Origin: Candidatus Micrarchaeia archaeon
Lineage (GTDB): Archaea; Micrarchaeota; Micrarchaeia; CAILAH01
Reading direction: 5' to 3'
Length of the DNA stretch: 64,000 nt
NCBI GenBank assembly: GCA_038874595.1
Contig: JAVZCB010000005.1
Location: 17,594-81,593, forward strand
In this document: positions 8,646 to 56,695 of the stretch, piece after piece
How positions within the stretch are numbered: the stretch's first letter is position 1
Layout: each line of letters starts with the position of its first letter
Translations under genes and position numbers: made by a program
Notes under the pieces: model-generated
Told to the model about the DNA's origin: nothing
The model's input: the letters and a program-made list of their open reading frames with translations, nothing else
Database searches by the model: none

Positions 8646-9011
8646 TTATCTCCTTCTCTTAACAATCTTCATCTTTGAAGGAGTAAGAAGTATCTTCTCG
8701 TTGTCAATCCTTGCAATATCACCACGGATTTCCTTTGCATACTCCTTAAGCTTATCGATAACTGCTGTGAGCACCTTTTCATTCTTGAGCATTGGCGTGA
8801 TGTTCAAGAGAATGACATTCCCGTTGTTCAGCTCGGTCTTTATTTCTGCAAGCACAGCGGTATTCTCAAGCGCAACCGGCTTAACGTATGCGACCGCTTC
8901 TTCCTCCTCGGTAGCAAGGTTCTCAAGGTCTTCAGAATCAAGATATTCCTGTAGATTCATGTCCTTTCCGCCCAGTCCGAGTGCGTCAGTAAACTTCTGC
9001 AGTATACCCAT
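8646..9011 (-). CDS. SepF-like (DUF552) putative cell division protein
   Basis: About 120 aa with acidic linker and C-terminal alpha/beta domain; track start at 9026 is TTG, the first ATG is at 9011. Confidence 0.45.
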   Translation of the reverse strand: MGILQKFTDALGLGGKDMNLQEYLDSEDLENLATEEEEAVAYVKPVALENTAVLAEIKTELNNGNVILLNITPMLKNEKVLTAVIDKLKEYAKEIRGDIARIDNEKILLTPSKMKIVKRRR

Positions 9012-9026
9012 TGTACCACCTGTCAA

Positions 9027-9240
9027 CTATTTCTACAATAAATATTATAAATATGAATTAAACCTCACTTCATAAAAATAAATGAACCTGATTGCATGCA
9101 ATACGCGTGCTTGTTTTTTATGATGGGAGATTCTATATAAGCCTAGTTGTAGTTCTACTATTTTATGAATGAGAAAGAAATAGTGGAATTAAGTATTTAA
9201 AATATCGTGCGCTTAATCTGCTGCTTGTTTTGAGTGTGGT
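9027..9240. other. Candidate replication origin (oriC) region upstream of orc1/cdc6
   Basis: AT-rich 214-bp divergent intergenic region; perfect palindrome ATTGCATGCAAT; one AGTGGAA mini-ORB-like core near 9181. Confidence 0.35.
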
Positions 9241-10425
9241 ATGATGCTGACATTTGAGGAGCTGATGGAAAGGAGCGGTGTGTTTAAGGATATGAATATG
9301 CTTTCACCGCATTACATCCCAGATGTCCTGCCTCACAGGGAAGAAGAAATTGAAACCATAATGAAAACCGTTGCGCCTGCTCTTAAGAATACAAAACCAA
9401 AAAACATGTTCCTCTATGGCAAGACAGGTACCGGCAAAACTTGCTCAACCCGCCTAGTGATGGAAAAGTTCAATGCAATGAATAAGAATGCCATCATGAG
9501 ATATATGAACTGCAGGATTTATGATTCAAGGTACAAAATCATATTCAAGATAGTTAATGATGTATGCAAAGAAGATGCAAAAATGGGGTACCCTCTCTCA
9601 AAGCTTTACGAATCAATGCTGGAATGGGTTGAGCAGAACAACACGCACACCATAATTGTGCTTGATGAGATTGATATGGTTGATGATGTCGACGACCTGG
9701 TGTACACCATGACAAGGATAAATGATGAGCTTGAGCGCGGTAGTGTCTCAATAATAGGCATTTCAAACCGCTTACATTTCAAAGAAAAACTCGACCCGCG
9801 CAGCAAGAGCGCATTGTACGAGAAGGAAATCGTGTTCAGGCCTTACAATGCAACACAGCTGTACGAGATACTCAAGCAGCGGGCGGAAGGTGCCTTCATA
9901 AAGGAAGGTGTTGAAGACGCCGCTATAAGGCTCGCAGCCGCAGTTGCTGCACGAGAAACTGGCGATGCGAGATATGCTGTAAAGCTCCTGCACAAGGCCG
10001 GTGTAATAGCAAATGAAAATGGGGATTTGAAAGTTACTGAAAAGCACGTGGAAAATGCAAGAAAGAGCGTCGATGAGGATCTGGTTGTTGAGGCAATCAC
10101 CACCCTGCCACAGCACGAGCAGATTGCGCTGTATGGGATATCTTTATTGCAATTAAAAGGCAGCGCATATAAGAGGCTCGGTGAGGACGGCCAGGACATA
10201 TTCATGTCCGGAGAGGTATATGAAAGTTATGTAAAAGCGTGCAAAAGCCTTTCCGTAACCCCAAGAAGTGCGCGATGGTTCTCTGAATACTTAAATGATT
10301 TGGATATGCTTGGGCTGATTGCACTGACATCTTCAGGAAAGGGGACGCGTGGGCAAACGCGGTTTATTAAGCTGGCGTATGACCCTGCAAGGATAAAGGC
10401 CATTGTTGAGAAAATATTCAGCTGA
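9241..10425 (+). CDS. orc1: Orc1/Cdc6 replication initiator
   Basis: Walker A GKTGTGKT, AAA+ architecture, C-terminal winged helix; ATG start confirmed. Confidence 0.9.
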   Translation: MMLTFEELMERSGVFKDMNMLSPHYIPDVLPHREEEIETIMKTVAPALKNTKPKNMFLYGKTGTGKTCSTRLVMEKFNAMNKNAIMRYMNCRIYDSRYKIIFKIVNDVCKEDAKMGYPLSKLYESMLEWVEQNNTHTIIVLDEIDMVDDVDDLVYTMTRINDELERGSVSIIGISNRLHFKEKLDPRSKSALYEKEIVFRPYNATQLYEILKQRAEGAFIKEGVEDAAIRLAAAVAARETGDARYAVKLLHKAGVIANENGDLKVTEKHVENARKSVDEDLVVEAITTLPQHEQIALYGISLLQLKGSAYKRLGEDGQDIFMSGEVYESYVKACKSLSVTPRSARWFSEYLNDLDMLGLIALTSSGKGTRGQTRFIKLAYDPARIKAIVEKIFS

Positions 10426-10524
10426 TTTTTGATGACGTATACTACCCTATTACAAGCAGGCAATGCAAAAACTGAATAGTATCTAAGCACGAACATTTAA
10501 TTCAAGATTTTTTATATGTGTCTG

Positions 10525-11220
10525 CTAGCATTTAATTCCCGAAACAAAAAAGAAAGTTTTCCCTTTTATAAGCCATAATAACTGAGATAACAAATCGCTA
10601 TTTAGCACTGTTTCCGGTGAAATATGCAACACCCTGATGCTGTTTTGTTTGAACATCCCCCTAACTTCTTGAAGCGTATGATAGGACTCATAAGGGACTG
10701 CGTAGCGGTCGTAAACTGTTTGTTGTGATGCGCTCCCTTTAAGGATACAGCGGACAGGAAATGAATTTACAAAACCCATAATACGCTGGGGATTTTTGTT
10801 GAATGCGCTGTGGAGGAGCCATCGTACTGTACGGTAGTGTACCCGGCTATATTTGTTGTATAAACCGAGAATAATTCTACCGTTCGGCTTAAGATGCCTT
10901 GAGAGGCTTGAGACGCCGAGCGATACGTTTGGCGTATGATGAAGCACTCCACTGCATAATACAAAATCGAACTTTTTTCCTAAATTAAAGGTTAATATGT
11001 CATCACATACAAATTCAATATTGTCACTCACATCATGCTTTTTTGCCAACCTTTTTGCATAAGATAATTGTTTCTCGTTTATGTCAAGTGCAGTAACTCT
11101 TGCTCCGAGTTTTGCAAAATAAACCGCTTTTTCACCAGTACCGCAGCCTGCATCCAGCATTGTTTTTCCTTCCAGCTCAGTTTCATTCCTAAGCCCCCAT
11201 AACGAAACGAACTTGCGCAT
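10525..11220 (-). CDS. Class I SAM-dependent methyltransferase
   Basis: Motif I LDAGCGTGEKA and downstream methyltransferase fold motifs. Confidence 0.75.
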   Translation of the reverse strand: MRKFVSLWGLRNETELEGKTMLDAGCGTGEKAVYFAKLGARVTALDINEKQLSYAKRLAKKHDVSDNIEFVCDDILTFNLGKKFDFVLCSGVLHHTPNVSLGVSSLSRHLKPNGRIILGLYNKYSRVHYRTVRWLLHSAFNKNPQRIMGFVNSFPVRCILKGSASQQTVYDRYAVPYESYHTLQEVRGMFKQNSIRVLHISPETVLNSDLLSQLLWLIKGKTFFFVSGIKC

Positions 11221-11357
11221 CAGCTGCTTATGCCTTTTTGAAAAAGGATATATAAGGGGATAGGGATAAGATGAATAGAAAGAATATACCGAGCTGGCTA
11301 TTTGCGCATCCGAATATGATATTCAAACCACCTAAAAAATACAAAGAGTACAAAAAA

Positions 11358-12773
11358 TTACCTGACCTCACTTGGATATCCTTTATTTCTGCTTCTTGAT
11401 AATGCTGCATAGTCGCTCTGGCCTGCACGAAAGACACTGCCGTATGAGTCAAGCAGCTGCTCCTCAATCGATTGCGCACGCTTTATTGCACGCTCAACGT
11501 GTTCCTTTGAAATAAGTGATGCACCTTCAAATATTGCAATATCTCCCGCCATCTTTATGATGCCGCTAAGGTCACGAAGCCTTAATGTAAGACCGTCCTT
11601 TCCATCAATCTGCCTCGCGCGCAATTTTGATTCCTGTATTATGCGCATGCACGCATCATAAGATGCATGTGGTATCCTCCCATCTTTTGCAATCTCCTGC
11701 GCTATGAACTGTACCATTTTCTCGCGGTTTTTCTCGTTATCCGGCATAACCGTATTAAGCAGCACTTCATAACCAGAACCTATAATACGTGAGCGTAGGG
11801 GTGGAAGTATTGCGTGCACATCATTGATGTTAACTGCACCTACAAGAATGAAATCGCACGGCACGTTATCAACGCGAACAACCGCACCTGTGCTCGTTGA
11901 ATTCCTGCCTACTATCGGGAACTTTTTCTCCTGCATTGCTGTTAAAAGATACCTTTGTAACTCACCAAGCGTTGAAAGCTCATCAATGAACAGGACACCT
12001 TCGTGTGCTTCGTGTATTGCCCCGGGCACAACACGCTCGTGCGGCGGTATCCCAATATCCTTGTGGCCGCCGTACGGGTCGTGCCTTACATCACCAAGCA
12101 ATTCCGATTCTGACGCTCCTGTCGCCTGCACAAAAGTATTCCTGTCAAGATGGACCAGGATTTTTCTCTGCTGCTCACCACCTGCGCGCGTCCTGTTTTT
12201 GTATACCTTAACCTTTGTGCCCGCACGCTCATAGGTAAGCTCTTCCTCCTTGCCCTCAGGGGTTATGCGCTTCATCAGGACCTTATCATCGCGCGAGATG
12301 CGCGGCGCACTTGAGAACATATCTTCAATATTACGGTTTCTCCTATACTTTTCGGCACCGCAGTATAAGCATATGTTTGATTCCGGATCGCTTATTGTCC
12401 CGCATTTCCTGCATCTAAAGCCCAGCCTTTCAGAAACGTAGTATGGGGCATCGCGCGGGTCAATCAGCTTTGCCTTAAGTATTTCCTTTTTCTCACGTTC
12501 AATATCCTCTGCGGTTTTTATCTCAAGAATCGGCCTGTCAGGGTTCTCAAAATTGCTTAAAACAGCAATCTGCTGCGTAGGCTTTGGAAGTGCGGATGAA
12601 ATTGTGTTTGCAATAAAGCTCTTGCCAGTACCTGGTGGGCCAACCAAAAGCAGGTGCCTCCTCTGCTTCGCAACAATATGCGCTATTTCAAGAACGTGCT
12701 CCTGCCCAATCACCCTTTCAAGAGGGCTTTCAGGAATCTTTATTTCAGAAGTACTCTCAAAAGATAGAGGCAT
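11358..12773 (-). CDS. LonB-like AAA+ ATPase with zinc-ribbon insert and no protease domain
   Basis: VIGQE...GPPGTGKS, Walker B VLFIDEL, LRSRI...GYEV as in archaeal LonB; CxxC...CxxC insert; ends after the AAA+ module. Confidence 0.6.
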   Translation of the reverse strand: MPLSFESTSEIKIPESPLERVIGQEHVLEIAHIVAKQRRHLLLVGPPGTGKSFIANTISSALPKPTQQIAVLSNFENPDRPILEIKTAEDIEREKKEILKAKLIDPRDAPYYVSERLGFRCRKCGTISDPESNICLYCGAEKYRRNRNIEDMFSSAPRISRDDKVLMKRITPEGKEEELTYERAGTKVKVYKNRTRAGGEQQRKILVHLDRNTFVQATGASESELLGDVRHDPYGGHKDIGIPPHERVVPGAIHEAHEGVLFIDELSTLGELQRYLLTAMQEKKFPIVGRNSTSTGAVVRVDNVPCDFILVGAVNINDVHAILPPLRSRIIGSGYEVLLNTVMPDNEKNREKMVQFIAQEIAKDGRIPHASYDACMRIIQESKLRARQIDGKDGLTLRLRDLSGIIKMAGDIAIFEGASLISKEHVERAIKRAQSIEEQLLDSYGSVFRAGQSDYAALSRSRNKGYPSEVR

Positions 12774-12849
12774 ACGAAGTTAAGACCACACAATGTTTAA
12801 AAATACTTCTCAAAAGCAATTTTTACGACAAATGACGATGTGTTATGTT

Positions 12850-18045: not shown

Positions 18046-19155
18046 CTAACATTTGATTTTGATTATTATCATTCCATCCTTGTACCGTGCATTCTTTTCA
18101 ATGTGCGAAAGTGCCTTGCTTATCTCATGCTCACTCCTGCCTTGCTTCTTAAGCTGGCGGACAAGATGTATCATCTGGTCTATATTATGATAATTCCTAT
18201 GTATGTAAGCTGCAGATGCGCGTGCGTTCCTCTCCTTAGTCTCAAGCCCGGCAAGCCGCTCTTTTACCTTTGCCAGTGCAAGCTTGCGGTGCTCTTCCGT
18301 TTCTGCTGCTCCTGCATCCGTATCATCTTCTGAAAGTGCTGGCTCGTATATCGTATCAACCATTTCAAGCACAGATTTGAATTTTATCTTTTCATACTCG
18401 CTGCTCTCATATTTCGTAAGATGCGCAACAGAATAATCCACCAGTTTGCCGTCCTTCTTGTATATGTAATAATTGCCCTCAGCACACACGCCCTTAATCA
18501 TATACAACAGGCGTTCCTTGTCTTCTGCGTTTGGCTCGCGCTCAGAGCGCGGGTCGATGCCGGCGCGCACAAATGCCTCCTCTAAGTATTTTGGCGCTAC
18601 CGCAACCTGTGACAGGATGCCTGCCATTAGTGTCTTCTTACCGTGGAGGGTAATGTGCCTCGGCTCAATAGAAAAAGGTGAAGTTTTTGATGGGGGAAAT
18701 AGGTATGGTACTCCCTTTCTCAGCTCTCTTCCACGCCAGCTTTCACGCCTGTAAATCACATCTATCACATTGTTATGGTCTGCATCACATAGGATTATGT
18801 TGCCGTTTGAGAATAGTTCAATAACGAGCTTATAATGCTTCCCATGCGAGGTTATGCTGAATATGAGTATGCGCTCAAACCCTGGCTGCTCTATGTTATC
18901 AATCACGCCGTTTGTGAGGCGCTTACGGAGTGCCATTATGAAGTTTGACGGCTGCTCTGGTGATGGGATTTCCCTCTTAGTTGAGGTTATATAATCCGGC
19001 AGCTGTATTAAGAGCGTAAACTTCCCATCTTCGTTTGAGACCTGGACCTTGAATAGCCTACTTGTCACCTGGTAAATCTTGCCTATCCTTGAGCCCATAA
19101 ACCTGCCGCTCATCTCCTTGGCAATATAGAAATACTCTAGGTCTGCAAGCTGCAT
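18046..19155 (-). CDS. NFACT-N (FbpA/Rqc2 N-terminal)-like domain protein
   Basis: N-terminal region with HGKHYKLVIELFSNGNIILCD resembles NFACT-N; only 369 aa, shorter than full-length NFACT. Confidence 0.45.
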   Translation of the reverse strand: MQLADLEYFYIAKEMSGRFMGSRIGKIYQVTSRLFKVQVSNEDGKFTLLIQLPDYITSTKREIPSPEQPSNFIMALRKRLTNGVIDNIEQPGFERILIFSITSHGKHYKLVIELFSNGNIILCDADHNNVIDVIYRRESWRGRELRKGVPYLFPPSKTSPFSIEPRHITLHGKKTLMAGILSQVAVAPKYLEEAFVRAGIDPRSEREPNAEDKERLLYMIKGVCAEGNYYIYKKDGKLVDYSVAHLTKYESSEYEKIKFKSVLEMVDTIYEPALSEDDTDAGAAETEEHRKLALAKVKERLAGLETKERNARASAAYIHRNYHNIDQMIHLVRQLKKQGRSEHEISKALSHIEKNARYKDGMIIIKIKC

Positions 19156-25305: not shown

Positions 25306-25974
25306 TCAATAGCAAAAATGCCTCTTGAAGAGGTAATCTGCAATATTGTTGTTGCCGCACATGCGTGCTATATCAATTGCAGTATGCTGCCATTCATCCT
25401 CAAACAATATCCACGCGCCATTATTAACCAGCATCCTGGCTATGCGCATGCTACCGCTCGCTGATGCAAACATCAACGCCGTGGAGCCAGAGAAGTTGCG
25501 TGCATTGACATCCGCTCCTGCATCAATAAGCATCTTTGCAATTGTTACTTCGCTAAGTGATGCCGCCCACATCAGTGCGTTGTCGCCAAGCACTGTCGGC
25601 AGGTCAACCTGTGCGCCTGCATTGAGCAGATGGGATACAATCCTAATCCTGTTGCACATTGTAGCCAATACTATTACAGGTGTGCCCTCATCATCAACCA
25701 CGTTTGGGTTTGCACCGCTTTCAAGCAGTGCTTTGACCGCACCGCTGTCACCTTTCAGGGTAGCATAAATAAGTGCATAGCCGAGCTGTACGTCATGTCC
25801 CTGCTTGTAAATCCAATTTAAGTCAGGGATGAGCTTATTTATCTTGTTTGTCAAGGGCAGCATAGCATTTTTTCGAAAACTGTTTATCCTATGTGCCTTC
25901 TCTGCGGGGGACTGCGAAGGCTCAACAATAAAATCGCATGCCTGCACTGTTGCTGTTTTCATCTGGCTGATCAT
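25306..25974 (-). CDS. Ankyrin-repeat protein
   Basis: Multiple 33-residue ankyrin repeats with G-TPL..A...G motifs. Confidence 0.7.
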   Translation of the reverse strand: MISQMKTATVQACDFIVEPSQSPAEKAHRINSFRKNAMLPLTNKINKLIPDLNWIYKQGHDVQLGYALIYATLKGDSGAVKALLESGANPNVVDDEGTPVIVLATMCNRIRIVSHLLNAGAQVDLPTVLGDNALMWAASLSEVTIAKMLIDAGADVNARNFSGSTALMFASASGSMRIARMLVNNGAWILFEDEWQHTAIDIARMCGNNNIADYLFKRHFCY

Positions 25975-29269: not shown

Positions 29270-31405
29270 ATGGAATTAAAGTGGGTGCTACTATCCTTTA
29301 TGTTTATCTTATCGCTCATGGTTATTGTAAATGCTGCAGATTGTCCTACACCTATAAGCGCCCCGGGCACGTATGTTATGAGTGAAGATTATGCTGGCGC
29401 GCCTTATAGTGATCCGATTGTGGATGGAAAAGCGTGTGTAAAAATCACTTCAAGTGATGTCATATTTGACTGCAACAACCACTATATACACAACAATGGA
29501 ACTGCTGGATTAACTTATGGTATTCTGGTTGTCAGCAATTTACCAGTAACAAACGTAACAATAAAAAATTGCCGCGGGATTTATGATTATACCGATGGGA
29601 TATATTTTCACGAAACACAAAACTCGCGAATTGAAAAAGTAGTTTCAAATAATAACGGTAATGGTTTTGTGGTTAATGGTGGCCAAAACAATACTATTTT
29701 CAATAACACTGTGCACTCAAACGAATATGGGATTTCAATATTGAGCTCATCGAAGAATATTGTTGAGAAAAATTACATATATTCACAAAAAGAAGGGGTG
29801 ATTATAACCCTCTCAACAAAAAACACAGTCAAGGATAATAAAATCTATAATAACGTAATTAATGGGATATCCCTAACTTTGTTATCTATGTATAACAACC
29901 TCACAGGAAACACACTTGAGAACAATGGGATACGGGGAGTATATGCAGAACTTGCCTCACACCACAACTATGTCTACAATAATTCAGCAAAAGGAGGGAC
30001 ATGGGGATTTAGGTTTACCTCTTCCGGTAATACCACGCTTATAAAAAACACTGCTAGTGAAAGCATAGTAGGATTTCTTGTTGAGCAAAGCGAGAACTGC
30101 ACCCTAAAAAACAACATTGCCATAAGAAATTCTGATACTGGTTTTGCGGTGGGACAACTATCACACAGGACAAAGATGGAAAACAACACTGGCTATGGCT
30201 CGGATAATGGGCTTTATATTGATACAAGCAATAATGTGGTTGTTGACACGTTTACCACATACAACAACGATTTGTACGGGATATATATACTAGATTCTTA
30301 CGGGGCGCAGATTAAAAACGTGCACGTGTACAACAGCTCAACAGAGTTCTATGCAGAGTCAGGAGGTGTTACAACTTCCATTAGTGTTACAAACATCACG
30401 ATAGATAATCCAAACGGCGGGTTTGTCAACAAGACGGTCCTTAACATATTTGATACCATAAATAACGGTGAAGAGCTTGCAATTAAGTGGGTGAGGAACA
30501 CATATCCCCTACCACCCGGCAAATCTTCGTTTGAAGGCAAGTTCCTTAATATTAGCGGCGTTGCATCCATAAACAAGATAGAATGGCTCTGGACGCTGAG
30601 TGAATCCAGCGGGTACGATGAGGAATCGTTTGAGCTCGCAAAATATAGCGGCTCGGGATGGTCACGCGTAAGTGCAACTCTTGATATTGTACTGCATAAA
30701 ATGACTGTGTACAATTTACTGCCTGCGAGCATATACGGGATTCTTGGTAATGGTAGCACACTAAACTACACAATTGCGGACATATACCGCGCAAACGTAA
30801 CAAACAGGACAAGCCTGGCAAGATGGAGTGGTACTGGCGAGGCAGGGAGGGCAAATATTGAAGGAGGCAACATCAGCGACCTGAACTTAAGCTCAAGAAC
30901 ACTTACAGACAGATGGGCTGCTTTCTATGGTGATATTGTAGGTAGTATTTATCTTACAACCAATGCAGGAGGCCTTTCTAATTATGTTTATATGTGGAAC
31001 TGGGCGCCTGCATACGGTGGTACTGTATGCGCATCAACTAATTCATCGATGTTAAGCATAAATGTGACAGGCGCAAGCGGCAGGGATGTTGATGGTGCGT
31101 GGGGTTTTGGGGATGCGGCTGATAACGGGAGGAACACGTTTGTCGGGCTAGGGTGTGATATCTTGCTTGGAAGCGCAAACGTAACCGGTGCGGACTTTGC
31201 AGACACTGGTGCAGCTGGTGGTTTCAGGACGTGTGCACTCAAGACAAAAAAATCCCCTTCAAAAAGCAATATGCTGTTTTGTACGCGTATAGATGCAAAT
31301 GGTGCGGCCTTTGATAATACACCTGCAAACTTTGAGATTATTGTTCCTACTGCTTTTGGTAATGGTGTGTTTGAGACATACTATTTCTATGCTGCTTTTG
31401 ATTAA
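29270..31405 (+). CDS. Secreted right-handed beta-helix (PbH1) repeat protein
   Basis: N-terminal signal peptide; repeated N-x-I/V beta-helix rungs; many N-glycosylation sequons. Confidence 0.6.
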   Translation: MELKWVLLSFMFILSLMVIVNAADCPTPISAPGTYVMSEDYAGAPYSDPIVDGKACVKITSSDVIFDCNNHYIHNNGTAGLTYGILVVSNLPVTNVTIKNCRGIYDYTDGIYFHETQNSRIEKVVSNNNGNGFVVNGGQNNTIFNNTVHSNEYGISILSSSKNIVEKNYIYSQKEGVIITLSTKNTVKDNKIYNNVINGISLTLLSMYNNLTGNTLENNGIRGVYAELASHHNYVYNNSAKGGTWGFRFTSSGNTTLIKNTASESIVGFLVEQSENCTLKNNIAIRNSDTGFAVGQLSHRTKMENNTGYGSDNGLYIDTSNNVVVDTFTTYNNDLYGIYILDSYGAQIKNVHVYNSSTEFYAESGGVTTSISVTNITIDNPNGGFVNKTVLNIFDTINNGEELAIKWVRNTYPLPPGKSSFEGKFLNISGVASINKIEWLWTLSESSGYDEESFELAKYSGSGWSRVSATLDIVLHKMTVYNLLPASIYGILGNGSTLNYTIADIYRANVTNRTSLARWSGTGEAGRANIEGGNISDLNLSSRTLTDRWAAFYGDIVGSIYLTTNAGGLSNYVYMWNWAPAYGGTVCASTNSSMLSINVTGASGRDVDGAWGFGDAADNGRNTFVGLGCDILLGSANVTGADFADTGAAGGFRTCALKTKKSPSKSNMLFCTRIDANGAAFDNTPANFEIIVPTAFGNGVFETYYFYAAFD

Positions 31406-38931: not shown

Positions 38932-40395
38932 TCAGTGCTTTGCCTTCTCCAGCAATTTTATGGTCTCAAGCACCACTGAAATCCCTGAACCTGTACAGCC
39001 AAGGTCTACTGGAGGGATTGGCTTGTTTCTGTATGCTGTGCCTGCAATATCCAAATGTATCCATTTCGCTTTTGATATAAAACTGGAGAGGAATGCAGCG
39101 GCGGTTATTGCACCAGCCTCACCGGTGTTTGTAACATTTGCAATGTCTGCAAACTTACCTTTGTTCATCTCTGAGTACTCCTCCCATAAAGGCATCTGCC
39201 ATATTTCATCAAAACTTTCTGAGCTTGCCTTTTTCATCAAGCTGGCAAATTCATCATCGTTTGAAAACATGCCTATGGCATAGGAACCCAATGCAACAAC
39301 ACATGCACCTGTAAGCGTCGCAAGGTCTATCATGTAATCTGGCTTATACTTATCCTCTGCATATGCCAAAGTATCAGCCAGCACAAGCCTGCCCTCTGCA
39401 TCCGTGTTGAGTATCTCTATCGTCTTGCCATTGTATGCTCTTACGATATCACCGGGCTTTGCGGCACACCCTCCGGGCATATTCTCCGTACAGGGCATTA
39501 AGCCTATCACATTGATTTTTGGTTTCATCTCAGCCACGGCCTTCATTATACCTAGCACTGCACACGCACCGCTCTTATCAAATTTCATATCCTCCATACC
39601 TTTGCTTGGCTTAAGTGAGATGCCCCCGCTGTCAAATGTAAGGCCTTTACCTGCAATAACAACAGTTTTCTTTGCACCTGGGCACGTGTATTCCAGGATT
39701 GAAAGTGTCGGCTCCCTTCCACTTCCGCTCGCAACTGCAAGAAACGCATTCATCCCCATTTTCTGCATATCTTTCCTTGAAATAAGCTTGTACTTAAGTC
39801 CTGTGCGTGATGCGAGCTTTTTTGCTTCCGCTGCCATAAGCTGCGGTGTAGCGACGTTTGCCGGCTTGTTTGCAATGTCGCGCGCAAAATTTATTGACTC
39901 TGCAATTTTTCTCGCTTCATTTGCGGCTGCAACAAACTCCTTTTCTACATAAAGGAAAATGTGGTTAGGCGTAACACCATCTTCATCTTTATTGCTCCCA
40001 CCCTTCTCCCCTGTCTTGAATTCTTCGTATTTATGCACATTTACAAAAAGGGCATATGTGAGGTTCTTCAAGTGCAACTGCTCAAGGCCGCGCCCATCAA
40101 TCACCAGTGAAGGCGTACGAAGCGCCTTCGCAAGCCCAATCACGGCGCTTGGAATCCTGCGCGCATGCCTCGGCTTGAATTTTTCTTTCTCACCTAACCC
40201 AACAAAAATTATTCCATCTATGAAAGCGATTTCACCCACCTTTGCTAAAAATTTGTTCTCTGATAGCTTTTTTGCGTAATTACCATACCCCGTAGATATA
40301 GGTTCCGCTACACCCTTCCCACTAAAACATAACACTGCGTGCACTGGTCCCGATAAGTCTTTTTCAATAATCTCAACCTTAGGCTCCTTTACCAT
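38932..40395 (-). CDS. pepA: Leucyl aminopeptidase (M17 family)
   Basis: NTDAEGRLVLAD signature and M17 metal-binding residues. Confidence 0.85.
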   Translation of the reverse strand: MVKEPKVEIIEKDLSGPVHAVLCFSGKGVAEPISTGYGNYAKKLSENKFLAKVGEIAFIDGIIFVGLGEKEKFKPRHARRIPSAVIGLAKALRTPSLVIDGRGLEQLHLKNLTYALFVNVHKYEEFKTGEKGGSNKDEDGVTPNHIFLYVEKEFVAAANEARKIAESINFARDIANKPANVATPQLMAAEAKKLASRTGLKYKLISRKDMQKMGMNAFLAVASGSGREPTLSILEYTCPGAKKTVVIAGKGLTFDSGGISLKPSKGMEDMKFDKSGACAVLGIMKAVAEMKPKINVIGLMPCTENMPGGCAAKPGDIVRAYNGKTIEILNTDAEGRLVLADTLAYAEDKYKPDYMIDLATLTGACVVALGSYAIGMFSNDDEFASLMKKASSESFDEIWQMPLWEEYSEMNKGKFADIANVTNTGEAGAITAAAFLSSFISKAKWIHLDIAGTAYRNKPIPPVDLGCTGSGISVVLETIKLLEKAKH

Positions 40396-42482
40396 AGATA
40401 CACCTTTTTCTTCCTACTATTTATGTAAACTAATATAAAAGAAAATGCTACAAGCACACCTAAAACGGCACAAGCCTTTGCCACGTCCCCGCCAGGTATA
40501 CCATCTACATAAAACTTCTCTTCATGTTCCCGCTCTATACCTGCCTTATCAATCCAGACCACCGAAAGAACATGCTCGCCCGTTTCAAGTAAGGTGCCTT
40601 TATCATCTTTGACTTCCACCCCATCAACATAAACTGCATATGCGATGTAAGGTCCATATACAGCGAACTTGTACTCGCGGCCATCACTGCTCTCTTTTGC
40701 AACTGTGAGCACCGGCTCAAAAACTTCGTATGCCCCTTCGTATGTATACGTTTCAGTATAAAAGTTAGCCACCAATTTTAGCTTGTGGCTGCCTGGTGAT
40801 AAAGGTATGTTGTAATCGAGCACATAAGAAGGAGCTGAAGAATTGTCATAAAATACCTCTTTGCCATCTATATAAACTCTTATATTATATGTGGTGTTAC
40901 CAGTCACTTGAAAGGTTGCTGTAAACCTTCCAGTGCCATCAGAAGGGATTGATGTTGTTAATGATAAGTTATCTACTTTATAAATGGTGTTTGAATAAGC
41001 GGGAGTGCTGGTGGGCAACCGTATCACCTGGACGTGCACGCCATCATATACAAGGATAGAGTTTGTAAGCCCATCACTCAAATCAACTGTAACTTGTTTG
41101 GCTAACTGCGGAGATGCGTATACTTCATCTATACCCCTGTCCTTAACCACAGTAAGATTTTTTGGTGTTATCGAAACAAGCTTAAGTTCAGCTTTACGCT
41201 GGTCATATTTTGATAATATCGCGCTAAACTTCTTTGCCGTCTTTTGGCCGCTGCTAATGCTCAAAGGGATCTTATCAGAGCCAAAACTGTGGGATATCCA
41301 TACCGGGCAGTAATACTGGTAATTGTTTGAGAGCACCTGCGAAACCTTAAATGGAATAATCACATAATTCTTGCCTGGATGCACCAGCAAATTAATTGAA
41401 GAGTCATCAAACCTAATAATTTCAGCTTCGCTTTCACATGGCACTGCCTGGGCGCTAAAAAGCTGGTACTGCACGCTATCAATTTCAATAATGATTGCTC
41501 CATCATCCCCTGGGGCAAGCTGTGCTGGAAGTGTGTAAACTCGATAAGACGGTGTGAACTTGGTATAATTCAGGACAACGATGTCTTCGGTACTTCCACC
41601 AAGAGCGCCTCTACCTTCCCAGACCATATTCCCATATTCTGAGTGTGACATTGCGCGTGCCCTTTCAATCAGCTCTGCACTTGTATCATTGCTGAAATAC
41701 ATAGGTATATGTGTTGCATCTATATACCCCACCTCAAGCCATGTTGGGTCAACACCAACCCATTCACCTATATAAACTTCGGCCCATGAATGTAGCTGCC
41801 AACCATACTTTGGTGAATAAACATAACCCAATACAGAACGGGAAGGGTATCCTAGTGAACGGGCGAGAGCAATAAAAAGATTGGTAAATTCAACACATAC
41901 CCCTCGCGGGTTGGACATAACATCGCTTGAATTTCTGTTCTTTCCCATCTCATTTATATCATAAGAAACATAGCTGTTGACCCAAACTGCGAGCGCTGCT
42001 ATCTTATCTATGTCCTCCTTGTAGCCAGCAGTCACGGCGCGTGCTTGTTTGTGTATTTCAGGTGTGATTATTATGTGCTCTGTCCCAGCAAGATACTCCG
42101 CCCCTGCTTCTTTTGCAGAATAGCTGGTTGGAAGAGAGTGTACATACCTGCTAACAGAGCTAATATTTGCAGAGATAGAATATGAATAGCTCCTGAAACT
42201 TTTGTCGTAATATATCCGTACTACCTGATTTCCACCTTCTTTTGTTATTTTTGCCTCAGGCGGGATTGAAAGTGCCACGTGCTGATAACCAGTATCTTGC
42301 GGGACAGCTAGGTTGATGCTTAATCCATAAAGCTCCCCAGCAGTTGAGGATATCCTACCCTCACGAGAGAGCTGCGCAGTAAGCGAAGAGATTAGGGTGG
42401 GGTTGATATTTTCAAACTGTGCATTTGCAAGCTGGAATAAGAGCAATATGTACAACATTGCAAATGACACACTTCTTCTCAT
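40389..42482 (-). CDS. Secreted transglutaminase-like domain protein with C-terminal TM anchor
   Basis: Signal peptide; transglutaminase-like Cys-His-Asp core (GVCVEF, QLHSWAEVY, VGVDP); C-terminal TM plus KKK tail. Confidence 0.7.
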   Translation of the reverse strand: MRRSVSFAMLYILLLFQLANAQFENINPTLISSLTAQLSREGRISSTAGELYGLSINLAVPQDTGYQHVALSIPPEAKITKEGGNQVVRIYYDKSFRSYSYSISANISSVSRYVHSLPTSYSAKEAGAEYLAGTEHIIITPEIHKQARAVTAGYKEDIDKIAALAVWVNSYVSYDINEMGKNRNSSDVMSNPRGVCVEFTNLFIALARSLGYPSRSVLGYVYSPKYGWQLHSWAEVYIGEWVGVDPTWLEVGYIDATHIPMYFSNDTSAELIERARAMSHSEYGNMVWEGRGALGGSTEDIVVLNYTKFTPSYRVYTLPAQLAPGDDGAIIIEIDSVQYQLFSAQAVPCESEAEIIRFDDSSINLLVHPGKNYVIIPFKVSQVLSNNYQYYCPVWISHSFGSDKIPLSISSGQKTAKKFSAILSKYDQRKAELKLVSITPKNLTVVKDRGIDEVYASPQLAKQVTVDLSDGLTNSILVYDGVHVQVIRLPTSTPAYSNTIYKVDNLSLTTSIPSDGTGRFTATFQVTGNTTYNIRVYIDGKEVFYDNSSAPSYVLDYNIPLSPGSHKLKLVANFYTETYTYEGAYEVFEPVLTVAKESSDGREYKFAVYGPYIAYAVYVDGVEVKDDKGTLLETGEHVLSVVWIDKAGIEREHEEKFYVDGIPGGDVAKACAVLGVLVAFSFILVYINSRKKKVYLW

Positions 42483-42982
42483 ATGCGCACCCTTATGCGA
42501 TTGTTAATCTTGGTATTCTTATAGGCCCGCACTCTTAGCGACCTGCCCTTAGCTTTCAGAAAGCCAAGCGCATCATTAAGTATATTGTTATGGTCAAAAG
42601 CCAGCCTACTCTTGAGCGCTTCGTGTACCGGAAGCCACACGGCACATTGGGCATCGCTTCCCGGATGGAGGCGCACTTTTCTGGTCGTACAGTAAAATGC
42701 TACGCTTACTGTTCGGCGCGGGTCCCTTCTCGGAGAGGAATACACGCCTATGATACACTTTGGTATGACGCGGATGCCTGTCTCCTCATAAACCTCACGG
42801 ATAACACAATGCTCCATTGTTTCACTTTCTGATAAGTAGCCCCCTGGCAATGCAAACCAGCCCTTAAAAGGGGCAGCTTTCCTGCGTACCAAAAGCACCC
42901 TTTCACGATTAATAACAACACCGTCCGCTGCGATAGGCCTGTATACACGTGCATCCCTGATATTGCGATGGGTTGGGCTCAC
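42479..42982 (-). CDS. NUDIX hydrolase
   Basis: Nudix box GGYLSESETMEHCVIREVYEETGI. Confidence 0.75.
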   Translation of the reverse strand: MSPTHRNIRDARVYRPIAADGVVINRERVLLVRRKAAPFKGWFALPGGYLSESETMEHCVIREVYEETGIRVIPKCIIGVYSSPRRDPRRTVSVAFYCTTRKVRLHPGSDAQCAVWLPVHEALKSRLAFDHNNILNDALGFLKAKGRSLRVRAYKNTKINNRIRVRI

Positions 42983-44158
42983 CTAATCACTCTCGCTTTT
43001 TGTTGTTGCACCGAGCAGTTTCAGTTCATCATCCTCAAACCCAAAAAAATCAAGCGGCTTGCCCTCTTTCGCCATTATCTTTATCAAAGGCACATACTGC
43101 TCTGCATCCGTAAGGCTGCAATGGCATTTCTCAGCAATCTTCCTGCGGATTGACTTGCGCAGTGCGCGCTTCTCTGAGCTGATGCTCATTGAACGGAGGA
43201 ACTGCGGGAACTCGTACTTTGAAAACTTGTGATACTTATGCTCCTTAGACATTGCAACGCCTGCAAGCACAAGCGCATATGAGTATTTCTGGAGTTTCCA
43301 TACCTGCCTGTTAATCACCCTGCCATCAAACACATCGGCACGTGATAGGAAATTGTACGCGAGCGCAATCTCCTCTGGCTTCTCATATTCCACTGAAATG
43401 TTATTCTCAATCCATAATTTCATCAAGCCGTAATCCACTGTCGTGCCATCAAAAGAGCGCATTGCATCCTGGTAAGTCTCTGCCTTAAATAAGCTCTTCA
43501 CGCATTCAAATATGAGCCTATCACGGTCGCGTATTGATGATGGAGAATACGCGTGCAGGTCAATTATTGCAGAGCGCAAGTCGCCTCCAGAGCCGTCTGC
43601 TATCCTGTCAAGGATGTCGTCAGATACCGTAATGTCCTCCTCTTTTGCAATACGGGCGATTACTGAGCGCACAGTCCTTTTGTTGATATGCTTCATCTCA
43701 AGGAACTTGCACGCAGTACGTAATGGATATAACTTTTTGTCCCACGCATCGTTTGCTGTCAGGATAACTGGCTGTTTTGCGGCCTCAAGCACAGATGCTA
43801 TTGCCGATGCACCGCCACGGTCTGCCGTGCCCTGCAGTCCGTCTACCTCATCTATCAGGATAAGCTTGCGACGCGAGAACAGGCCTGCTGATGACGTTGC
43901 TGCACCCATTATGCGCTCAACGTTTTCCCTGTTGCGGGTATCCGAAGCGTTAAACTCAAGGATTTCCCAGCCCATCTCCGATGCAAGCGCATATGCGAGC
44001 GCTGTTTTCCCAACACCGGATGGGCCATAAACCAGAAGTGGCTTCTGCCTTTTGCCGCTTTCAATAAGCAATGCCCATTTCTTCACTTCCTCAACTACAT
44101 CACTGTTACCTGCAAACTCGGCAAGAGATTTTGGGGCGTGCTTCTGGTAAAGGTGCAT
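42983..44158 (-). CDS. rfcL: Replication factor C large subunit
   Basis: Walker A GPSGVGKT and archaeal RfcL domain order. Confidence 0.8.
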   Translation of the reverse strand: MHLYQKHAPKSLAEFAGNSDVVEEVKKWALLIESGKRQKPLLVYGPSGVGKTALAYALASEMGWEILEFNASDTRNRENVERIMGAATSSAGLFSRRKLILIDEVDGLQGTADRGGASAIASVLEAAKQPVILTANDAWDKKLYPLRTACKFLEMKHINKRTVRSVIARIAKEEDITVSDDILDRIADGSGGDLRSAIIDLHAYSPSSIRDRDRLIFECVKSLFKAETYQDAMRSFDGTTVDYGLMKLWIENNISVEYEKPEEIALAYNFLSRADVFDGRVINRQVWKLQKYSYALVLAGVAMSKEHKYHKFSKYEFPQFLRSMSISSEKRALRKSIRRKIAEKCHCSLTDAEQYVPLIKIMAKEGKPLDFFGFEDDELKLLGATTKSESD

Positions 44159-50491: not shown

Positions 50492-50611
50492 AACCTCCTT
50501 CGTTGTTAGGAAATGCAGAGGTTTATAAACGTTTCCATATGGCAGGCAAATGCACGTGGGGGCGTACTGCTAGCTTGCATAACTTATAAGATTTCAAGAT
50601 ATAAACTGCTC

Positions 50612-51589
50612 ATGGACGAGGCAAGATACGTCCCCTGGACGGAAAAATACAGGCCTGCAAAGGTAAGTGAGATTGTTGGGCAGGCAGAGATAGTTGAACG
50701 GCTCGGGGCGTATGTGCGCGAGAAAAATATGCCTAACCTGCTGTTTGCAGGGCCGGCAGGTGTCGGGAAGACCACCGCGGCAATTGCGCTTGCGCGCGAG
50801 CTTTACGGTGAAGGTTACAAGGAAAGTTTCCTTGAGCTTAATGCGAGTGATGAGCGCGGGATAGATGTGGTTAGAGGCAAAATCAAAGATTTTGCAAGGT
50901 CTGTTCCGATCGCGGATGTCCCATTCAAAATAATATTCCTTGATGAGGCAGATGCACTCACACCTGATGCGCAGAACGCGCTCAGGAGGACTATGGAGAT
51001 GTACGCTGGTGCAACTAGGTTTATACTCTCTTGCAACTATTCATCAAAGATAATTGAGCCTATACAAAGCAGGTGTGCCATGTTCAGGTTTACCCAGCTG
51101 AAAAACGAGGATATCGAGAAAATGATTCATCACATTTCAAAATCTGAGGGAATATCCCTTACAAAAGAGGCTGTGGATGCGCTTGTTGAAGTTGGGGAAG
51201 GGGATATGAGAAAGACCATTAACCTGTTGCAGAGCGCGTCTCTCCATTCAAAGAAGATTACTGAGAAGCAGGTTTACGGGCTTGCCGCAAAGGCAAAACC
51301 AAAAGAAATATCCGAAATAATTGAGAAAGCATATAATGGTGAGTTCAGCGAGGCAAGAAAGATGCTTGAAAAGGTAATGATAAATTATGGGATGAGCGGG
51401 CAAGATGTGCTTGACCAGATATATTCAGAAGTTGTAAAAATGAATATTCCTGATACTGCAAAGGTAAGGCTTGTCGACAGGATAGGAGAGTACAACTTCA
51501 GGCTGTCTGAAGGTGCAGATGAGAGGATACAGATTACTGCATTGCTCGCCCAGATCTCGCTTGAAGGCCGTATGAAAGGAGGGGTTTAG
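50612..51589 (+). CDS. rfcS: Replication factor C small subunit
   Basis: WTEKYRP, Walker A GPAGVGKT, DEAD-like Walker B, SRC motif; start placed at ATG 50612; no intein. Confidence 0.88.
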   Translation: MDEARYVPWTEKYRPAKVSEIVGQAEIVERLGAYVREKNMPNLLFAGPAGVGKTTAAIALARELYGEGYKESFLELNASDERGIDVVRGKIKDFARSVPIADVPFKIIFLDEADALTPDAQNALRRTMEMYAGATRFILSCNYSSKIIEPIQSRCAMFRFTQLKNEDIEKMIHHISKSEGISLTKEAVDALVEVGEGDMRKTINLLQSASLHSKKITEKQVYGLAAKAKPKEISEIIEKAYNGEFSEARKMLEKVMINYGMSGQDVLDQIYSEVVKMNIPDTAKVRLVDRIGEYNFRLSEGADERIQITALLAQISLEGRMKGGV

Positions 51590-55978: not shown

Positions 55979-56695
55979 GTGAGATGTAATTCTGTGAGCG
56001 ATGAGATTGAATTTATAGATGTGGCTCTTCTTGAGAAGATTGATGCTGAGACGACTGTTGAGGGGTTTGGCTCAAAAATCAGCAGTACATTCTTTGAGGC
56101 GGCAAACCTGCTGGGCACCCTAAAAATAAAGGGCCTTATCGAGATACATTCCGCGATTGGGAACAGCCCGGTGCTCCTCACCGAGAAAGGAAAATTGCTG
56201 CTGAAAGATTTTGAGGCCAACGCGGAGGCAGAGATTGGCAAGATTGACCTGGCAGTGCTTGGGAGTGTGCGCGGTGGGCTGCGCGATCCAAAGAAAGTCG
56301 AGGCAGCGTTAAACATCAACGGGAAGGATATCGCATATTCCATATACAGGCTTGCAAAGAAAGGATATCTTGAATACAAAGTTAGGAATGGCAGTGTTGA
56401 GCTTGTTCTTACAACACGCGGGTTTGAGGAGGAGAATCCGACCGTAAAGGAGCATGCAAACAGGGTAATTGCAAAAACCGAGCTTGCAAGGCCTGTTGTA
56501 AAAGCTCCTGGGGAGGTACGAAACAAGACTGCTGAGGAACTGGCTGCCGAGGAGTTTGTTGTTGAAAGTGGGGATGCTAGAAAGGAGAGTATGGCACTGT
56601 CAAAAATGATGTATTATATTGATAGGTATAAGTGGTATGGTGTGCTTGCACTTATAGCTGCAGCTGCGGTGCTCCTTCTTGTTTTCTGGAAGTGA
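55979..56695 (+). CDS. Hypothetical membrane-anchored protein with two winged-helix-like repeats
   Basis: GTG start; two internally similar about 70-aa segments; C-terminal TM helix. Confidence 0.4.
   Translation: MRCNSVSDEIEFIDVALLEKIDAETTVEGFGSKISSTFFEAANLLGTLKIKGLIEIHSAIGNSPVLLTEKGKLLLKDFEANAEAEIGKIDLAVLGSVRGGLRDPKKVEAALNINGKDIAYSIYRLAKKGYLEYKVRNGSVELVLTTRGFEEENPTVKEHANRVIAKTELARPVVKAPGEVRNKTAEELAAEEFVVESGDARKESMALSKMMYYIDRYKWYGVLALIAAAAVLLLVFWK

What the first reader, a model, noticed from the sequence alone, without database searches (positions are those of the whole stretch)
11358..12773. LonB-like AAA+ ATPase without a protease domain, carrying a zinc-ribbon insert
The N-terminal and Walker B regions match archaeal LonB closely, but the protein ends after the AAA+ module. 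The region between Walker A and B, which holds the membrane hairpin in LonB, here carries a CxxC...CxxC zinc ribbon and a charged segment. No protease-domain gene is adjacent. This may be a soluble Lon-derived ATPase with a non-proteolytic role.
Basis: partly seen in the sequence, partly recalled or inferred. Interest (0 to 1): 0.55.

Follow-up and report, generated by a model that had tools for sequence, protein, structure and literature searches.

The report
Protease-less soluble LonB-like ATPase
This gene encodes an intact, strongly conserved archaeal motor protein that descends from the membrane protease LonB. It has lost both the membrane anchor and the protease. It belongs to a catalogued but never characterised family that is usually encoded next to the primase-like protein DnaG.

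Summary
ORF 11358-12773 (-) encodes a 471-aa protein with a complete LonB-type AAA+ module. T. onnurineus LonB (3K1J) matches at E 2.7e-90, about 50% identical over the core. In place of LonB's transmembrane hairpin there is a 124-aa basic insert with an invariant C4 zinc ribbon. There is no S16 protease domain, only a 27-aa tail.

It is not a fragment. The downstream gap is 137 bp. No protease domain occurs in any frame of the 64-kb window. dN/dS against a close orthologue is about 0.02. At least 591 species genomes encode relatives.

It is not new as a family. The orthologues are Swiss-Prot "Putative lon protease homolog" (T. acidophilum Q9HLX6, T. volcanium P58275) and Picrophilus "Protease La homolog type 2". 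I found no functional study of them.

Two features came out of this work:
- **DnaG linkage.** Archaeal dnaG lies directly upstream, often overlapping, in about 20 of 23 non-Micrarchaeota loci and about 11 of 54 Micrarchaeota loci. It is not adjacent in this window.
- **Conserved C-terminal tripeptide.** It is G-Y-x or M-F-x in Thermoplasmatota, which resembles HbYX, and [E/D]-[V/I]-x in Micrarchaeota.

Most likely this is a cytosolic ring unfoldase or remodeller that works with partners in trans. Interest is moderate.

The parts
11358..12773 (-). Complete CDS (471 aa plus TAA stop) of the protease-less, zinc-ribbon LonB-like AAA+ ATPase. The product is identical to MEM3364616.1/MEM4332183.1 (Ca. 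Micrarchaeia MAG).
   Evidence: dN/dS ~0.02 against the L092 orthologue
12513..12773 (-). Residues 1-87: the first part of the AAA+ alpha/beta domain. It aligns to TonLonB residues 25-108.
12618..12641 (-). Walker A motif, GPPGTGKS (residues 45-52).
   Evidence: G45, P47, G48, G50 and K51 are invariant
12141..12512 (-). Residues 88-211: the family-specific basic insert (helix, C4 zinc ribbon, helix, antiparallel beta-sheet). It sits at the point where LonB carries its transmembrane hairpin.
12360..12413 (-). C4 zinc ribbon, CRKCGTISDPESNICLYC (residues 121-138).
   Evidence: four invariant Cys; Pfam Zn_ribbon_3 E 6e-4
11442..12140 (-). Residues 212-444: the rest of the LonB-type AAA+ module. 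About 50% identical to TonLonB residues 157-386.
12066..12095 (-). Pore-loop-1 motif, GDVRHDPYGG (residues 227-236), with invariant Y234. LonB has GDVRHDPFQSGG here.
11979..11996 (-). Walker B motif, VLFIDE (residues 260-265).
   Evidence: D264 and E265 are invariant
11478..11663 (-). LonB-type AAA+ lid domain (residues 371-432), including the sensor-2 LTLRLR motif.
   Evidence: Pfam PF20436; R398 invariant among 30 Micrarchaeota members, R400 invariant in both alignments
11361..11441 (-). Residues 445-471: low-confidence helix followed by a disordered C-terminal tail ending ...GYPSEVR. Across Micrarchaeota the terminal tripeptide is conserved as [E/D]-[V/I]-x.
   Evidence: pLDDT < 50 at residues 461-471; tail statistics
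12796..12805 (-). TATA-like box TATTTTTAAA, centred about 27 nt upstream of the ATG. This suggests the gene has its own promoter and a leaderless or short-leader mRNA.
   Evidence: read directly from the sequence; inference from the usual spacing of archaeal promoters
11334..11357 (-). Two T6 tracts directly after the stop codon (11352-11357 and 11334-11339). They look like an archaeal oligo-T terminator.
   Evidence: read directly from the sequence; inference

Best explanation
The gene encodes a functional cytosolic paralogue of the membrane protease LonB. It belongs to the Swiss-Prot "Putative lon protease homolog" family (T. acidophilum Q9HLX6).

**Shown:**
- It keeps the whole LonB AAA+ motor: Walker A and B, the pore-loop aromatic residue, the conserved asparagine, arginine and LTLRLR motifs that I read as sensor 1, arginine finger and sensor 2, and the LonB lid.
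- It has swapped the transmembrane hairpin for a basic C4 zinc-ribbon/beta-sheet module at the same insertion point.
- It has lost the S16 protease domain. It ends in a short flexible tail with a conserved last tripeptide.

**Inferred:**
- It forms a hexameric ring that uses ATP to thread and unfold or remodel polypeptides.
- The six zinc-ribbon modules on the entry face replace membrane tethering as the element that selects clients or partners.
- The tails on the exit face dock a partner supplied in trans.
- Across Thermoplasmatota, a Thorarchaeota-like contig and part of Micrarchaeota, the gene sits directly downstream of archaeal dnaG and often overlaps it. The client or partner is therefore most likely DnaG-containing machinery (primosome or exosome cap).
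- In this genome the pair has been separated, and the gene appears to be transcribed on its own.
For: **Motor identity**
- E 2.7e-90 to TonLonB, with all catalytic motifs invariant across the family.
- Structural match of TM 0.87-0.88 to 4zpx.

**Soluble and protease-less**
-.

**A real, selected gene**
- dN/dS about 0.02, with the insert included (dN 0.042, dS 1.6).
- At least 591 relatives among species genomes.
- Synteny with Ca. Micrarchaeum contigs.

**Single origin**
- All zinc-ribbon proteins form one clade, separate from TM-type LonB, in a crude neighbour-joining tree.

**DnaG linkage**
- T. acidophilum: genes at 8673-10019 and 10001-11482 overlap.
- Aciduliprofundum, another Thermoplasmatota genome and a Thorarchaeota-like contig show the same pair.
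- Gugararchaeum shows it too.
- Counts: about 20 of 23 non-Micrarchaeota loci, and about 11 of 54 Micrarchaeota loci plus 4 convergent.
- The upstream gene in T. acidophilum is Ta0097, DnaG (PMC7325993).

**Tail**
- Conserved terminal tripeptide with a variable last residue.
- Predicted disordered.

**Expression**
- A "protease Lon homolog" (CSP5_1716) is detected alongside LonB (CSP5_1287) in the Cuniculiplasma proteome (PMC7285479). I did not verify that it is the orthologue.
Against: - No biochemical data exist for any member.
- Hexamer formation, polypeptide threading and the location of the insert on the entry face are inferred from LonB, not shown.
- In this window dnaG is absent from all 64 kb, and about three quarters of Micrarchaeota loci lack the adjacency. 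The DnaG link is ancestral context, not a local operon.
- The insert is basic in Micrarchaeota (median net charge +7). A zinc ribbon next to a primase gene fits a nucleic-acid substrate equally well.
- The insert has no recognisable fold relative, so its binding specificity is unknown.
Confidence: 0.5

Rival explanations
1. Lon-derived proteasomal ATPase. The ring docks on the 20S proteasome alpha-ring through its C-terminal tails and feeds unfolded proteins into it. It would be a third class of archaeal proteasome activator, beside PAN and Cdc48.
For: **Tail motif**
- Of 120 listed Thermoplasmatota members, 107 have a penultimate Tyr and 101 end in G-Y-x, after an acidic stretch.
- Methanomassiliicoccales end in M-F-x.
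- The conserved -1 residue with a variable last residue is the HbYX pattern, and the opposite of PDZ-type ligands.

**Tail position**
- The tail follows the AAA+ lid directly, as in PAN, and is predicted disordered.

**Phyletic hint**
- Thermoplasma lacks PAN (recalled from the literature: Ruepp 2000; Barthelme & Sauer 2012).
Against: - The window protein and 128 Micrarchaeota-type family members end in [E/D]-[V/I]-x, without Tyr or Phe at -1.
- The residue before Tyr is Gly, not hydrophobic, in most Thermoplasmatota.
- No proteasome gene lies near the ATPase gene in the neighbourhoods I examined, nor in the window or the loci held at the time.
- I could not establish that Micrarchaeota have a 20S proteasome.
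- The conserved neighbour is DnaG, not psmA or psmB.
Confidence: 0.15
2. Nucleic-acid motor partnered with DnaG. The ring translocates on DNA or RNA, either as a primase-helicase-like pair or as an RNA feeder for the DnaG-capped exosome. The zinc ribbon would supply the zinc-binding domain that I recall archaeal DnaG lacks.
For: - The overlapping dnaG-ATPase gene pair is conserved across phyla.
- The insert is a basic C4 zinc ribbon.
- Toprim primases recurrently pair with ring motors and zinc-binding domains (T7 gp4, bacterial DnaG-DnaB; recalled knowledge).
- The nearest non-Lon fold and sequence relatives are MCM, RuvB and ComM helicases and RuvBL, which also has an insert between Walker A and B.
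- In the window, the neighbours include orc1/cdc6, a RecJ/GAN-like gene and RNase HII.
Against: - The translocation loop is nearly identical to that of the protein-threading LonB (GDVRHDPY versus GDVRHDPF).
- The core is about 50% identical to LonB, against only 14-19% identity to the listed MCM, ComM, RuvBL and BchI structures (22-23% over a short RuvB match).
- Insert charge is not conserved: +1 in Thermoplasma and Picrophilus, -7 in the Thorarchaeota member.
- The replication neighbours in the window are on other strands or transcription units.
Confidence: 0.2
3. Split Lon protease. The S16 protease domain is encoded elsewhere and assembles with this ATPase in trans.
For: Stand-alone S16-domain proteins exist in Micrarchaeota. 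In two genomes one lies 1-2 kb downstream of the ATPase gene (L025 9573-11369 and L032 8412-10229).
Against: - Those two proteins have an N-terminal signal/TM segment and a C-terminal TM segment, so I infer the protease domain is extracytoplasmic.
- They occur in 2 of 91 loci only.
- There is none in the window.
- Thermoplasmatales also keep a full-length LonB alongside this paralogue (PMC7285479).
Confidence: 0.05
4. Truncated, decaying or mis-assembled lonB gene.
For: None, beyond the missing domains.
Against: - Hundreds of orthologues of 440-520 aa share the same architecture.
- dN/dS is about 0.02.
- All ATPase motifs are invariant.
- The identical protein occurs on two contigs of independent assemblies.
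Confidence: 0.01

Closest known systems
Swiss-Prot "Putative lon protease homolog": T. acidophilum Q9HLX6 (the gene after dnaG Ta0097) and T. volcanium P58275. Also Picrophilus Q6L1E9, "Protease La homolog type 2".
   Same: - The architecture is the same end to end: LonB AAA+ module, C4 zinc-ribbon insert, no TM segment and no protease.
- Identity is 51-52% over the full length.
- They fall in the same clade.
   Different: - Thermoplasmatota members have a tail about 20-40 aa longer. It carries a PYxYWN motif and ends in G-Y-x, against [E/D]-[V/I]-x here.
- They lie immediately downstream of dnaG, which this gene does not.
- I found no published function for any of them.
Archaeal LonB protease (T. 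onnurineus, PDB 3K1J/4ZPX; TIGR00764; MEROPS S16)
   Same: - The AAA+ module is about 50% identical, with the same motifs, pore loop and lid.
- The insertion point between Walker A and Walker B is the same.
   Different: - The transmembrane hairpin is replaced by a soluble zinc-ribbon module.
- The whole Ser-Lys protease domain is absent.
- The TIGR00764 score is below the cut-off.
ClpX (analogy of mechanism only)
   Same: It is an AAA+ ring unfoldase without a protease of its own. It carries a C4 zinc-binding module for substrate or adaptor recognition, and it docks on a separately encoded peptidase (recalled knowledge).
   Different: - It belongs to a different AAA+ clade.
- The ClpX zinc domain is N-terminal, not an internal insert.
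- ClpX docks through IGF loops, not through a C-terminal tail.
PAN, Cdc48/VAT and Mpa proteasomal ATPases (HbYX or GQYL tails)
   Same: They have a flexible tail directly after the AAA+ lid. The penultimate residue is conserved and the last residue is variable. Thermoplasmatota orthologues end in G-Y-x or M-F-x.
   Different: - The ATPase is LonB-type, not classical AAA, and has no coiled-coil/OB or double-psi-barrel N-domain.
- The window protein ends in E-V-R, so it has no aromatic residue at -1.
- No binding data exist.
MtaLonC (PDB 4FW9) and other protease-less TM-type LonB-like ATPases seen here (P0167, P0157)
   Same: They are Lon-family AAA+ modules with altered domain complements.
   Different: - LonC keeps the protease domain (solved structures are of the protease) and, as I recall, has a degenerate ATPase.
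- The TM-type truncated proteins form a separate clade in the tree and keep the hairpin.

Membership tests
Archaeal LonB protease (TIGR00764 / MEROPS S16) | LonB-type AAA+ module with Walker A and B, pore loop, sensor and arginine-finger motifs, and LonB lid | tested here: met
Archaeal LonB protease (TIGR00764 / MEROPS S16) | Transmembrane hairpin inserted between Walker A and Walker B | tested here: not met
   The maximum 19-residue hydropathy in the insert is -0.09. All zinc-ribbon relatives lack TM segments, whereas most LonB-type hits with an intact N-terminal part have them.
Archaeal LonB protease (TIGR00764 / MEROPS S16) | C-terminal S16 protease domain with a Ser-Lys dyad | tested here: not met
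   There is no Lon_C hit. The best-scoring TIGR00764 stretch stops at profile position 403 of 608, and the score of 368.6 is below the 516.6 cut-off. The protease HMM finds nothing in six frames.
"Putative lon protease homolog" family (Q9HLX6 type) | Protein of about 440-520 aa with a LonB AAA+ module, an invariant C4 zinc ribbon in the Walker A-B insert, no TM segment and no protease | tested here: met
   52% identity to P0420 (Q9HLX6) over the full length; same clade
"Putative lon protease homolog" family (Q9HLX6 type) | Gene immediately downstream of archaeal dnaG. This is typical, and it was defined in this work. | tested here: not met
   There is no DnaG in the 64-kb window. It is met in about 20 of 23 non-Micrarchaeota loci and about 11 of 54 Micrarchaeota loci.
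Proteasome-activating ATPases (PAN / Cdc48 / Mpa) | C-terminal HbYX (hydrophobic-Tyr-any) or GQYL motif | tested here: not met
   The window protein ends in S-E-V-R. Micrarchaeota members end in [E/D]-[V/I]-x. Thermoplasmatota orthologues end in G-Y-x or M-F-x.
Proteasome-activating ATPases (PAN / Cdc48 / Mpa) | Physical docking on the 20S alpha-ring and gate opening | not testable with these tools
   This needs binding and peptidase-stimulation assays, or multimer modelling.
Ring helicases coupled to Toprim primases (DnaB / gp4-like) | Genomic or physical coupling to a DnaG-type primase | tested here: inconclusive
   The coupling is conserved in relatives but absent here. The ATPase is AAA+ LonB-type, not the RecA-type of DnaB and gp4 (their type recalled).
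Ring helicases coupled to Toprim primases (DnaB / gp4-like) | Nucleic-acid-dependent NTPase and unwinding activity | not testable with these tools
   Biochemistry is required.
Defence-system Lon-like or AAA proteins (BrxL and others) | Match to a PADLOC model over the protein | tested here: not met
   There are only short generic AAA hits (RtcR, mad8, IetA; <= 36 bits).

The most novel reading that the evidence does not exclude
The Q9HLX6-type family is a previously unrecognised, Lon-derived class of archaeal proteasome-docking unfoldase that is coupled to DnaG. On this reading, its zinc-ribbon face engages DnaG-containing nucleic-acid machinery (primosome or exosome cap). Its C-terminal tails (G-Y-x / M-F-x, or [E/D]-[V/I]-x in Micrarchaeota) plug into the 20S alpha-ring. 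This would link turnover of replication or RNA-decay complexes to proteolysis in PAN-less archaea.
Probability: 0.12. Interest if true: 0.8.

Novelty: new member of a known kind. Interest (0 to 1): 0.45.

Why it matters
- **AAA+ evolution.** It shows a Lon motor freed from both its membrane anchor and its protease. It is kept under strong selection even in the very small genomes of DPANN archaea, which argues for a housekeeping role that nobody has defined.
- **Testable leads.** The conserved dnaG linkage and the docking-type tail give two concrete hypotheses for a family that has sat unannotated in model archaea such as Thermoplasma acidophilum since 2000.
- **What a result would mean.** If the tail binds the 20S proteasome, the family would be a third kind of archaeal proteasomal ATPase. 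If the ring works with DnaG on nucleic acids, it would bear on the disputed role of archaeal DnaG as primase or as exosome subunit.

Tried and rejected
**Hidden or frameshifted protease domain.** Rejected. A six-frame HMM search of the window and all loci found nothing relevant, and the downstream gap is 137 bp.

**Protease encoded next door in relatives.** Only two exported S16 proteins turned up. I rejected them as cytosolic partners.

**Operon partner in the window.** The flanking genes are a DUF2085 membrane protein and a SAM methyltransferase. That order is conserved only among close Ca. Micrarchaeum relatives, not across the family.

**Defence-system membership.** PADLOC gave only generic AAA hits.

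**Proteasome, PAN or Cdc48 genes.**
- None appeared in the Pfam scans of the window's large ORFs across the 64 kb.
This is uninformative, because only the neighbourhood of one gene was sampled.
- I could not determine whether Micrarchaeota encode a 20S proteasome or PAN.

**Literature.**
Three Micrarchaeota genome papers were also searched for proteasome and Lon terms.
- I found no paper on Ta0098/Q9HLX6, on a DnaG-Lon gene pair, or on HbYX-like tails in Lon-like ATPases.
- The library lacks most subscription journals, so absence there is weak evidence.

- The afdb50 fold library was not installed.
Full report
**1. The observation**

The ORF at 11358..12773 on the minus strand is real and encodes 471 aa.

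The sequence searches agree on what it is:
- Pfam reports only AAA+ families, the LonB-specific lid (PF20436, residues 371-432) and a weak zinc ribbon at 119-140. There is no Lon_C/S16 hit.
- The NCBIfam LonB model TIGR00764 scores 368.6 bits, below its 516.6 cut-off. The best-scoring stretch ends at profile position 403 of 608, so the protease part is unmatched.
- The best solved relative is Thermococcus onnurineus LonB (3k1j, E 2.7e-90). It matches in two blocks, query 3-87 and query 212-444, which leaves residues 88-211 as an insert.
- An AlphaFold model (pLDDT 81.4) superposes on the TonLon ATPase domain with TM 0.87-0.88.

The insert itself looks like this:
- It is 124 aa long, 41% charged and has net charge +7.
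- It has no hydrophobic stretch.
- Its four cysteines (C121, C124, C135, C138) are invariant in every alignment I made.

A profile built from the protease domains of 32 full-length LonBs finds no protease domain in any of the six frames of the window. Only 137 bp separate the stop codon from the next gene.

**2. It is a gene, not a remnant**

- The exact protein is recorded on two contigs (accessions MEM3364616.1 and MEM4332183.1, Ca. Micrarchaeia archaeon).
- Against the 94%-identical orthologue, dN is 0.042 and dS is 2.18. The insert is as constrained as the motor.
- Gene order is conserved with Ca. Micrarchaeum contigs: NFACT, MetRS, PRC, RNase HII, GAN-like, DUF2085, this gene, methyltransferase, Orc1/Cdc6, SepF.
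- A TATA-like box lies about 27 nt upstream of the ATG, and two T6 tracts follow the stop. This suggests an independent, leaderless transcript (inference).

**3. The family**

- The first homology search returned more than a hundred proteins of 448-499 aa, those that carry a name being from Micrarchaeota, at 53-94% identity.
- An exhaustive search of 50%-identity representatives split the relatives cleanly. One group has a zinc ribbon, no TM segment and no catalytic-serine motif, and measures about 440-520 aa. The other group is LonB-like with a TM hairpin.
- Cluster look-ups showed that the zinc-ribbon group reaches well beyond DPANN. It includes Aciduliprofundum boonei, a Korarchaeota MAG and Thorarchaeota.
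- A second search added the Thermoplasmatota. These include the Swiss-Prot entries "Putative lon protease homolog" of T. acidophilum (Q9HLX6) and T. volcanium (P58275), and Picrophilus "Protease La homolog type 2".
- A scan of one genome per GTDB species found at least 591 relatives. The best 80 were about 58 Micrarchaeota plus DHVE2, Methanomassiliicoccales and other Thermoplasmatota, and a few oddly labelled MAGs.
- In a crude neighbour-joining tree of the AAA+ core, without bootstrap, all zinc-ribbon proteins form one clade apart from TM-type LonB. The main Micrarchaeota group sits next to the Thermoplasmatota.

So the architecture arose once. The window protein is an ordinary member of a catalogued but uncharacterised family. 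I found no functional study within the limits of the held library. A Cuniculiplasma proteome lists a "protease Lon homolog" beside LonB, which is probably this paralogue. If so, it is expressed and coexists with full-length LonB in Thermoplasmatales (PMC7285479).

**4. What the motor says**

- These are invariant or nearly so across the family: Walker A (GPPGTGKS), Walker B (VLFIDE), N315, LRSRI and LTLRLR. I read the last three as sensor 1, arginine finger and sensor 2.
- The pore-loop-1 segment GDVRHDPYGG differs from LonB's GDVRHDPFQSGG by little more than Tyr for Phe.
- The simplest reading is that the protein still does what the LonB ATPase does. That is, it forms a ring and threads polypeptides. 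This is inference, as no member has been assayed.
- The insert sits where LonB's membrane anchor emerges. From my recollection of the TonLon structure paper (Cha et al. 2010), that is the face of substrate entry.
- The insert is basic in Micrarchaeota (median net charge +7). It is not basic in Thermoplasma or in the Thorarchaeota member.

**5. Two features not in the original finding**

*DnaG linkage.* The gene is immediately preceded, on the same strand and often with overlapping stop and start, by the archaeal DnaG (Toprim) gene in:
- T. acidophilum;
- Aciduliprofundum, another Thermoplasmatota genome and a Thorarchaeota-like contig;
- Ca. Gugararchaeum.

I built a DnaG profile from those neighbours and counted. 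The adjacency holds in about 20 of 23 non-Micrarchaeota loci. It holds in about 11 of 54 Micrarchaeota loci with enough upstream sequence, plus 4 in convergent orientation. The T. acidophilum upstream gene is Ta0097, DnaG (PMC7325993). A small Toprim protein and a PF1765-like gene often precede dnaG. A pair kept adjacent across phyla argues for functional coupling. In this window, however, dnaG is nowhere in the 64 kb.

*C-terminal tail.* After the lid comes a 27-50-aa segment that is predicted to be poorly ordered, with pLDDT below 50 at the end. Its last three residues are conserved by lineage:
- In 120 Thermoplasmatota members, 107 have Tyr at -1 and 101 end in G-Y-x after an acidic patch.
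- Methanomassiliicoccales end in M-F-x.
- In 128 Micrarchaeota-type members, position -2 is E or D in 96 and position -1 is V or I in 97, while the last residue varies.
- The window protein ends ...GYPSEVR.

A conserved -1 residue with a free last residue is the signature of the HbYX tails that dock PAN, Cdc48 and Rpt subunits into 20S alpha-ring pockets (recalled: Smith et al. 2007). Thermoplasma is known to lack PAN (recalled). This makes a proteasome partner conceivable, mainly for the Thermoplasmatota branch. I could not test it. I also could not establish whether Micrarchaeota have a 20S proteasome at all.

**6. Alternatives**

- *Nucleic-acid motor with DnaG.* This would be a primase-helicase-like pair or an exosome feeder. 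The operon, the zinc ribbon and the basic insert support it. The motor's near-identity to a protein translocase undercuts it.
- *Split Lon.* This is unlikely. The only S16 proteins found near the gene (L025 and L032) carry a signal/TM segment and a C-terminal anchor, so I infer they are exported.
- *Artefact or pseudogene.* This is excluded (section 2).
- *Defence-system membership.* There is no support for it.

**7. Verdict**

The finding is accurate. The "soluble Lon-derived ATPase" reading is right, and "non-proteolytic" remains open. The gene is a new member of a known, uncharacterised family rather than a new kind of thing. Its interest lies in the family-level leads, namely the DnaG linkage and the docking-type tail. 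These are directly testable in Thermoplasma acidophilum proteins that are easy to handle.

**Caveats**
- Taxon labels come from record titles, and a few are probably mis-binned (for example "Lachnospiraceae" and "Methanobacteriaceae").
- The DnaG and protease profiles are home-made from a few sequences.
- The adjacency counts use stop-to-stop ORFs.
- The tree is a distance tree without support values.

Noticed in passing
window 9023-9240 (spacer upstream of orc1/cdc6 at 9241-10425): This AT-rich intergenic region has three copies of an AGAAATAGTnGA-like element in inverted orientation (9023-9034, 9150-9163, 9176-9191). They resemble mini-ORB boxes, so this is a candidate replication origin about 2 kb from the ATPase gene.
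   Followed up: partly
L025 9573-11369; L032 8412-10229 (Ca. Fermentimicrarchaeum limneticum CP058998): These ORFs encode proteins of about 580 aa with an N-terminal signal/TM segment, an S16 Lon-protease domain (DGPSGG ... GKK) and a C-terminal TM anchor. They look like exported, ATPase-less Lon-protease-domain proteins of Micrarchaeota. They lie 1-2 kb downstream of the ATPase gene in just these two genomes.
   Followed up: partly
P0167 (L005/L006 6001-7224, Micrarchaeota MAG); P0157 (Polycladomyces); P0143, P0161, P0175, P0182: This is a second, separate clade of LonB-like AAA+ proteins. They keep the TM hairpin but also lack a protease domain (about 400-440 aa). No protease gene is adjacent in L005/L006.
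   Followed up: partly
P0145, P0148, P0155 (P0148 cluster on 2.8-3.8 Mb contigs): These LonB-like AAA+ proteins have an N-terminal extension of 220-360 aa (a HEAT_2 hit in P0145; P0145 and P0148 also have a TM hairpin) and no C-terminal protease. Taxonomy and function are unknown.
   Followed up: no
L003 13298-13922, L004 7998-8246, L010 3759-4491, and cluster analysis of L012-L091: Upstream of the ATPase there is a recurrent cluster: a PF1765-like (PF02594) gene, then a small Toprim protein of about 140 aa (found in 15 loci), then dnaG. In addition, a dCMP/cytidine deaminase gene follows the ATPase in L001 and L009.
   Followed up: partly
window 25306-25974 (-): An ankyrin-repeat protein (222 aa) is encoded in a DPANN archaeal genome.
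   Followed up: no
window 58774-59700 (+): A class III adenylate/guanylate cyclase domain protein (308 aa) follows an ADP-forming acetyl-CoA-synthetase-like pair (56679-58777).
   Followed up: no
window 18046-19155 (-): An NFACT-N (RqcH/Rqc2-like) protein of 369 aa lies next to MetRS. It matches the N-terminal and middle domains only.
   Followed up: no
window 38932-44158 (-): A same-strand run of genes encodes an M17 leucyl aminopeptidase, a 697-aa transglutaminase-core protein, a NUDIX hydrolase and an RFC-like AAA+ subunit. A second RFC subunit lies at 50513-51589.
   Followed up: no
window 29270-31405 (+) and 52187-54142 (-): Two large proteins with domains typical of surface proteins are encoded here. 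One is a right-handed beta-helix/NosD protein (711 aa) and the other is an NHL-repeat protein (651 aa).
   Followed up: no
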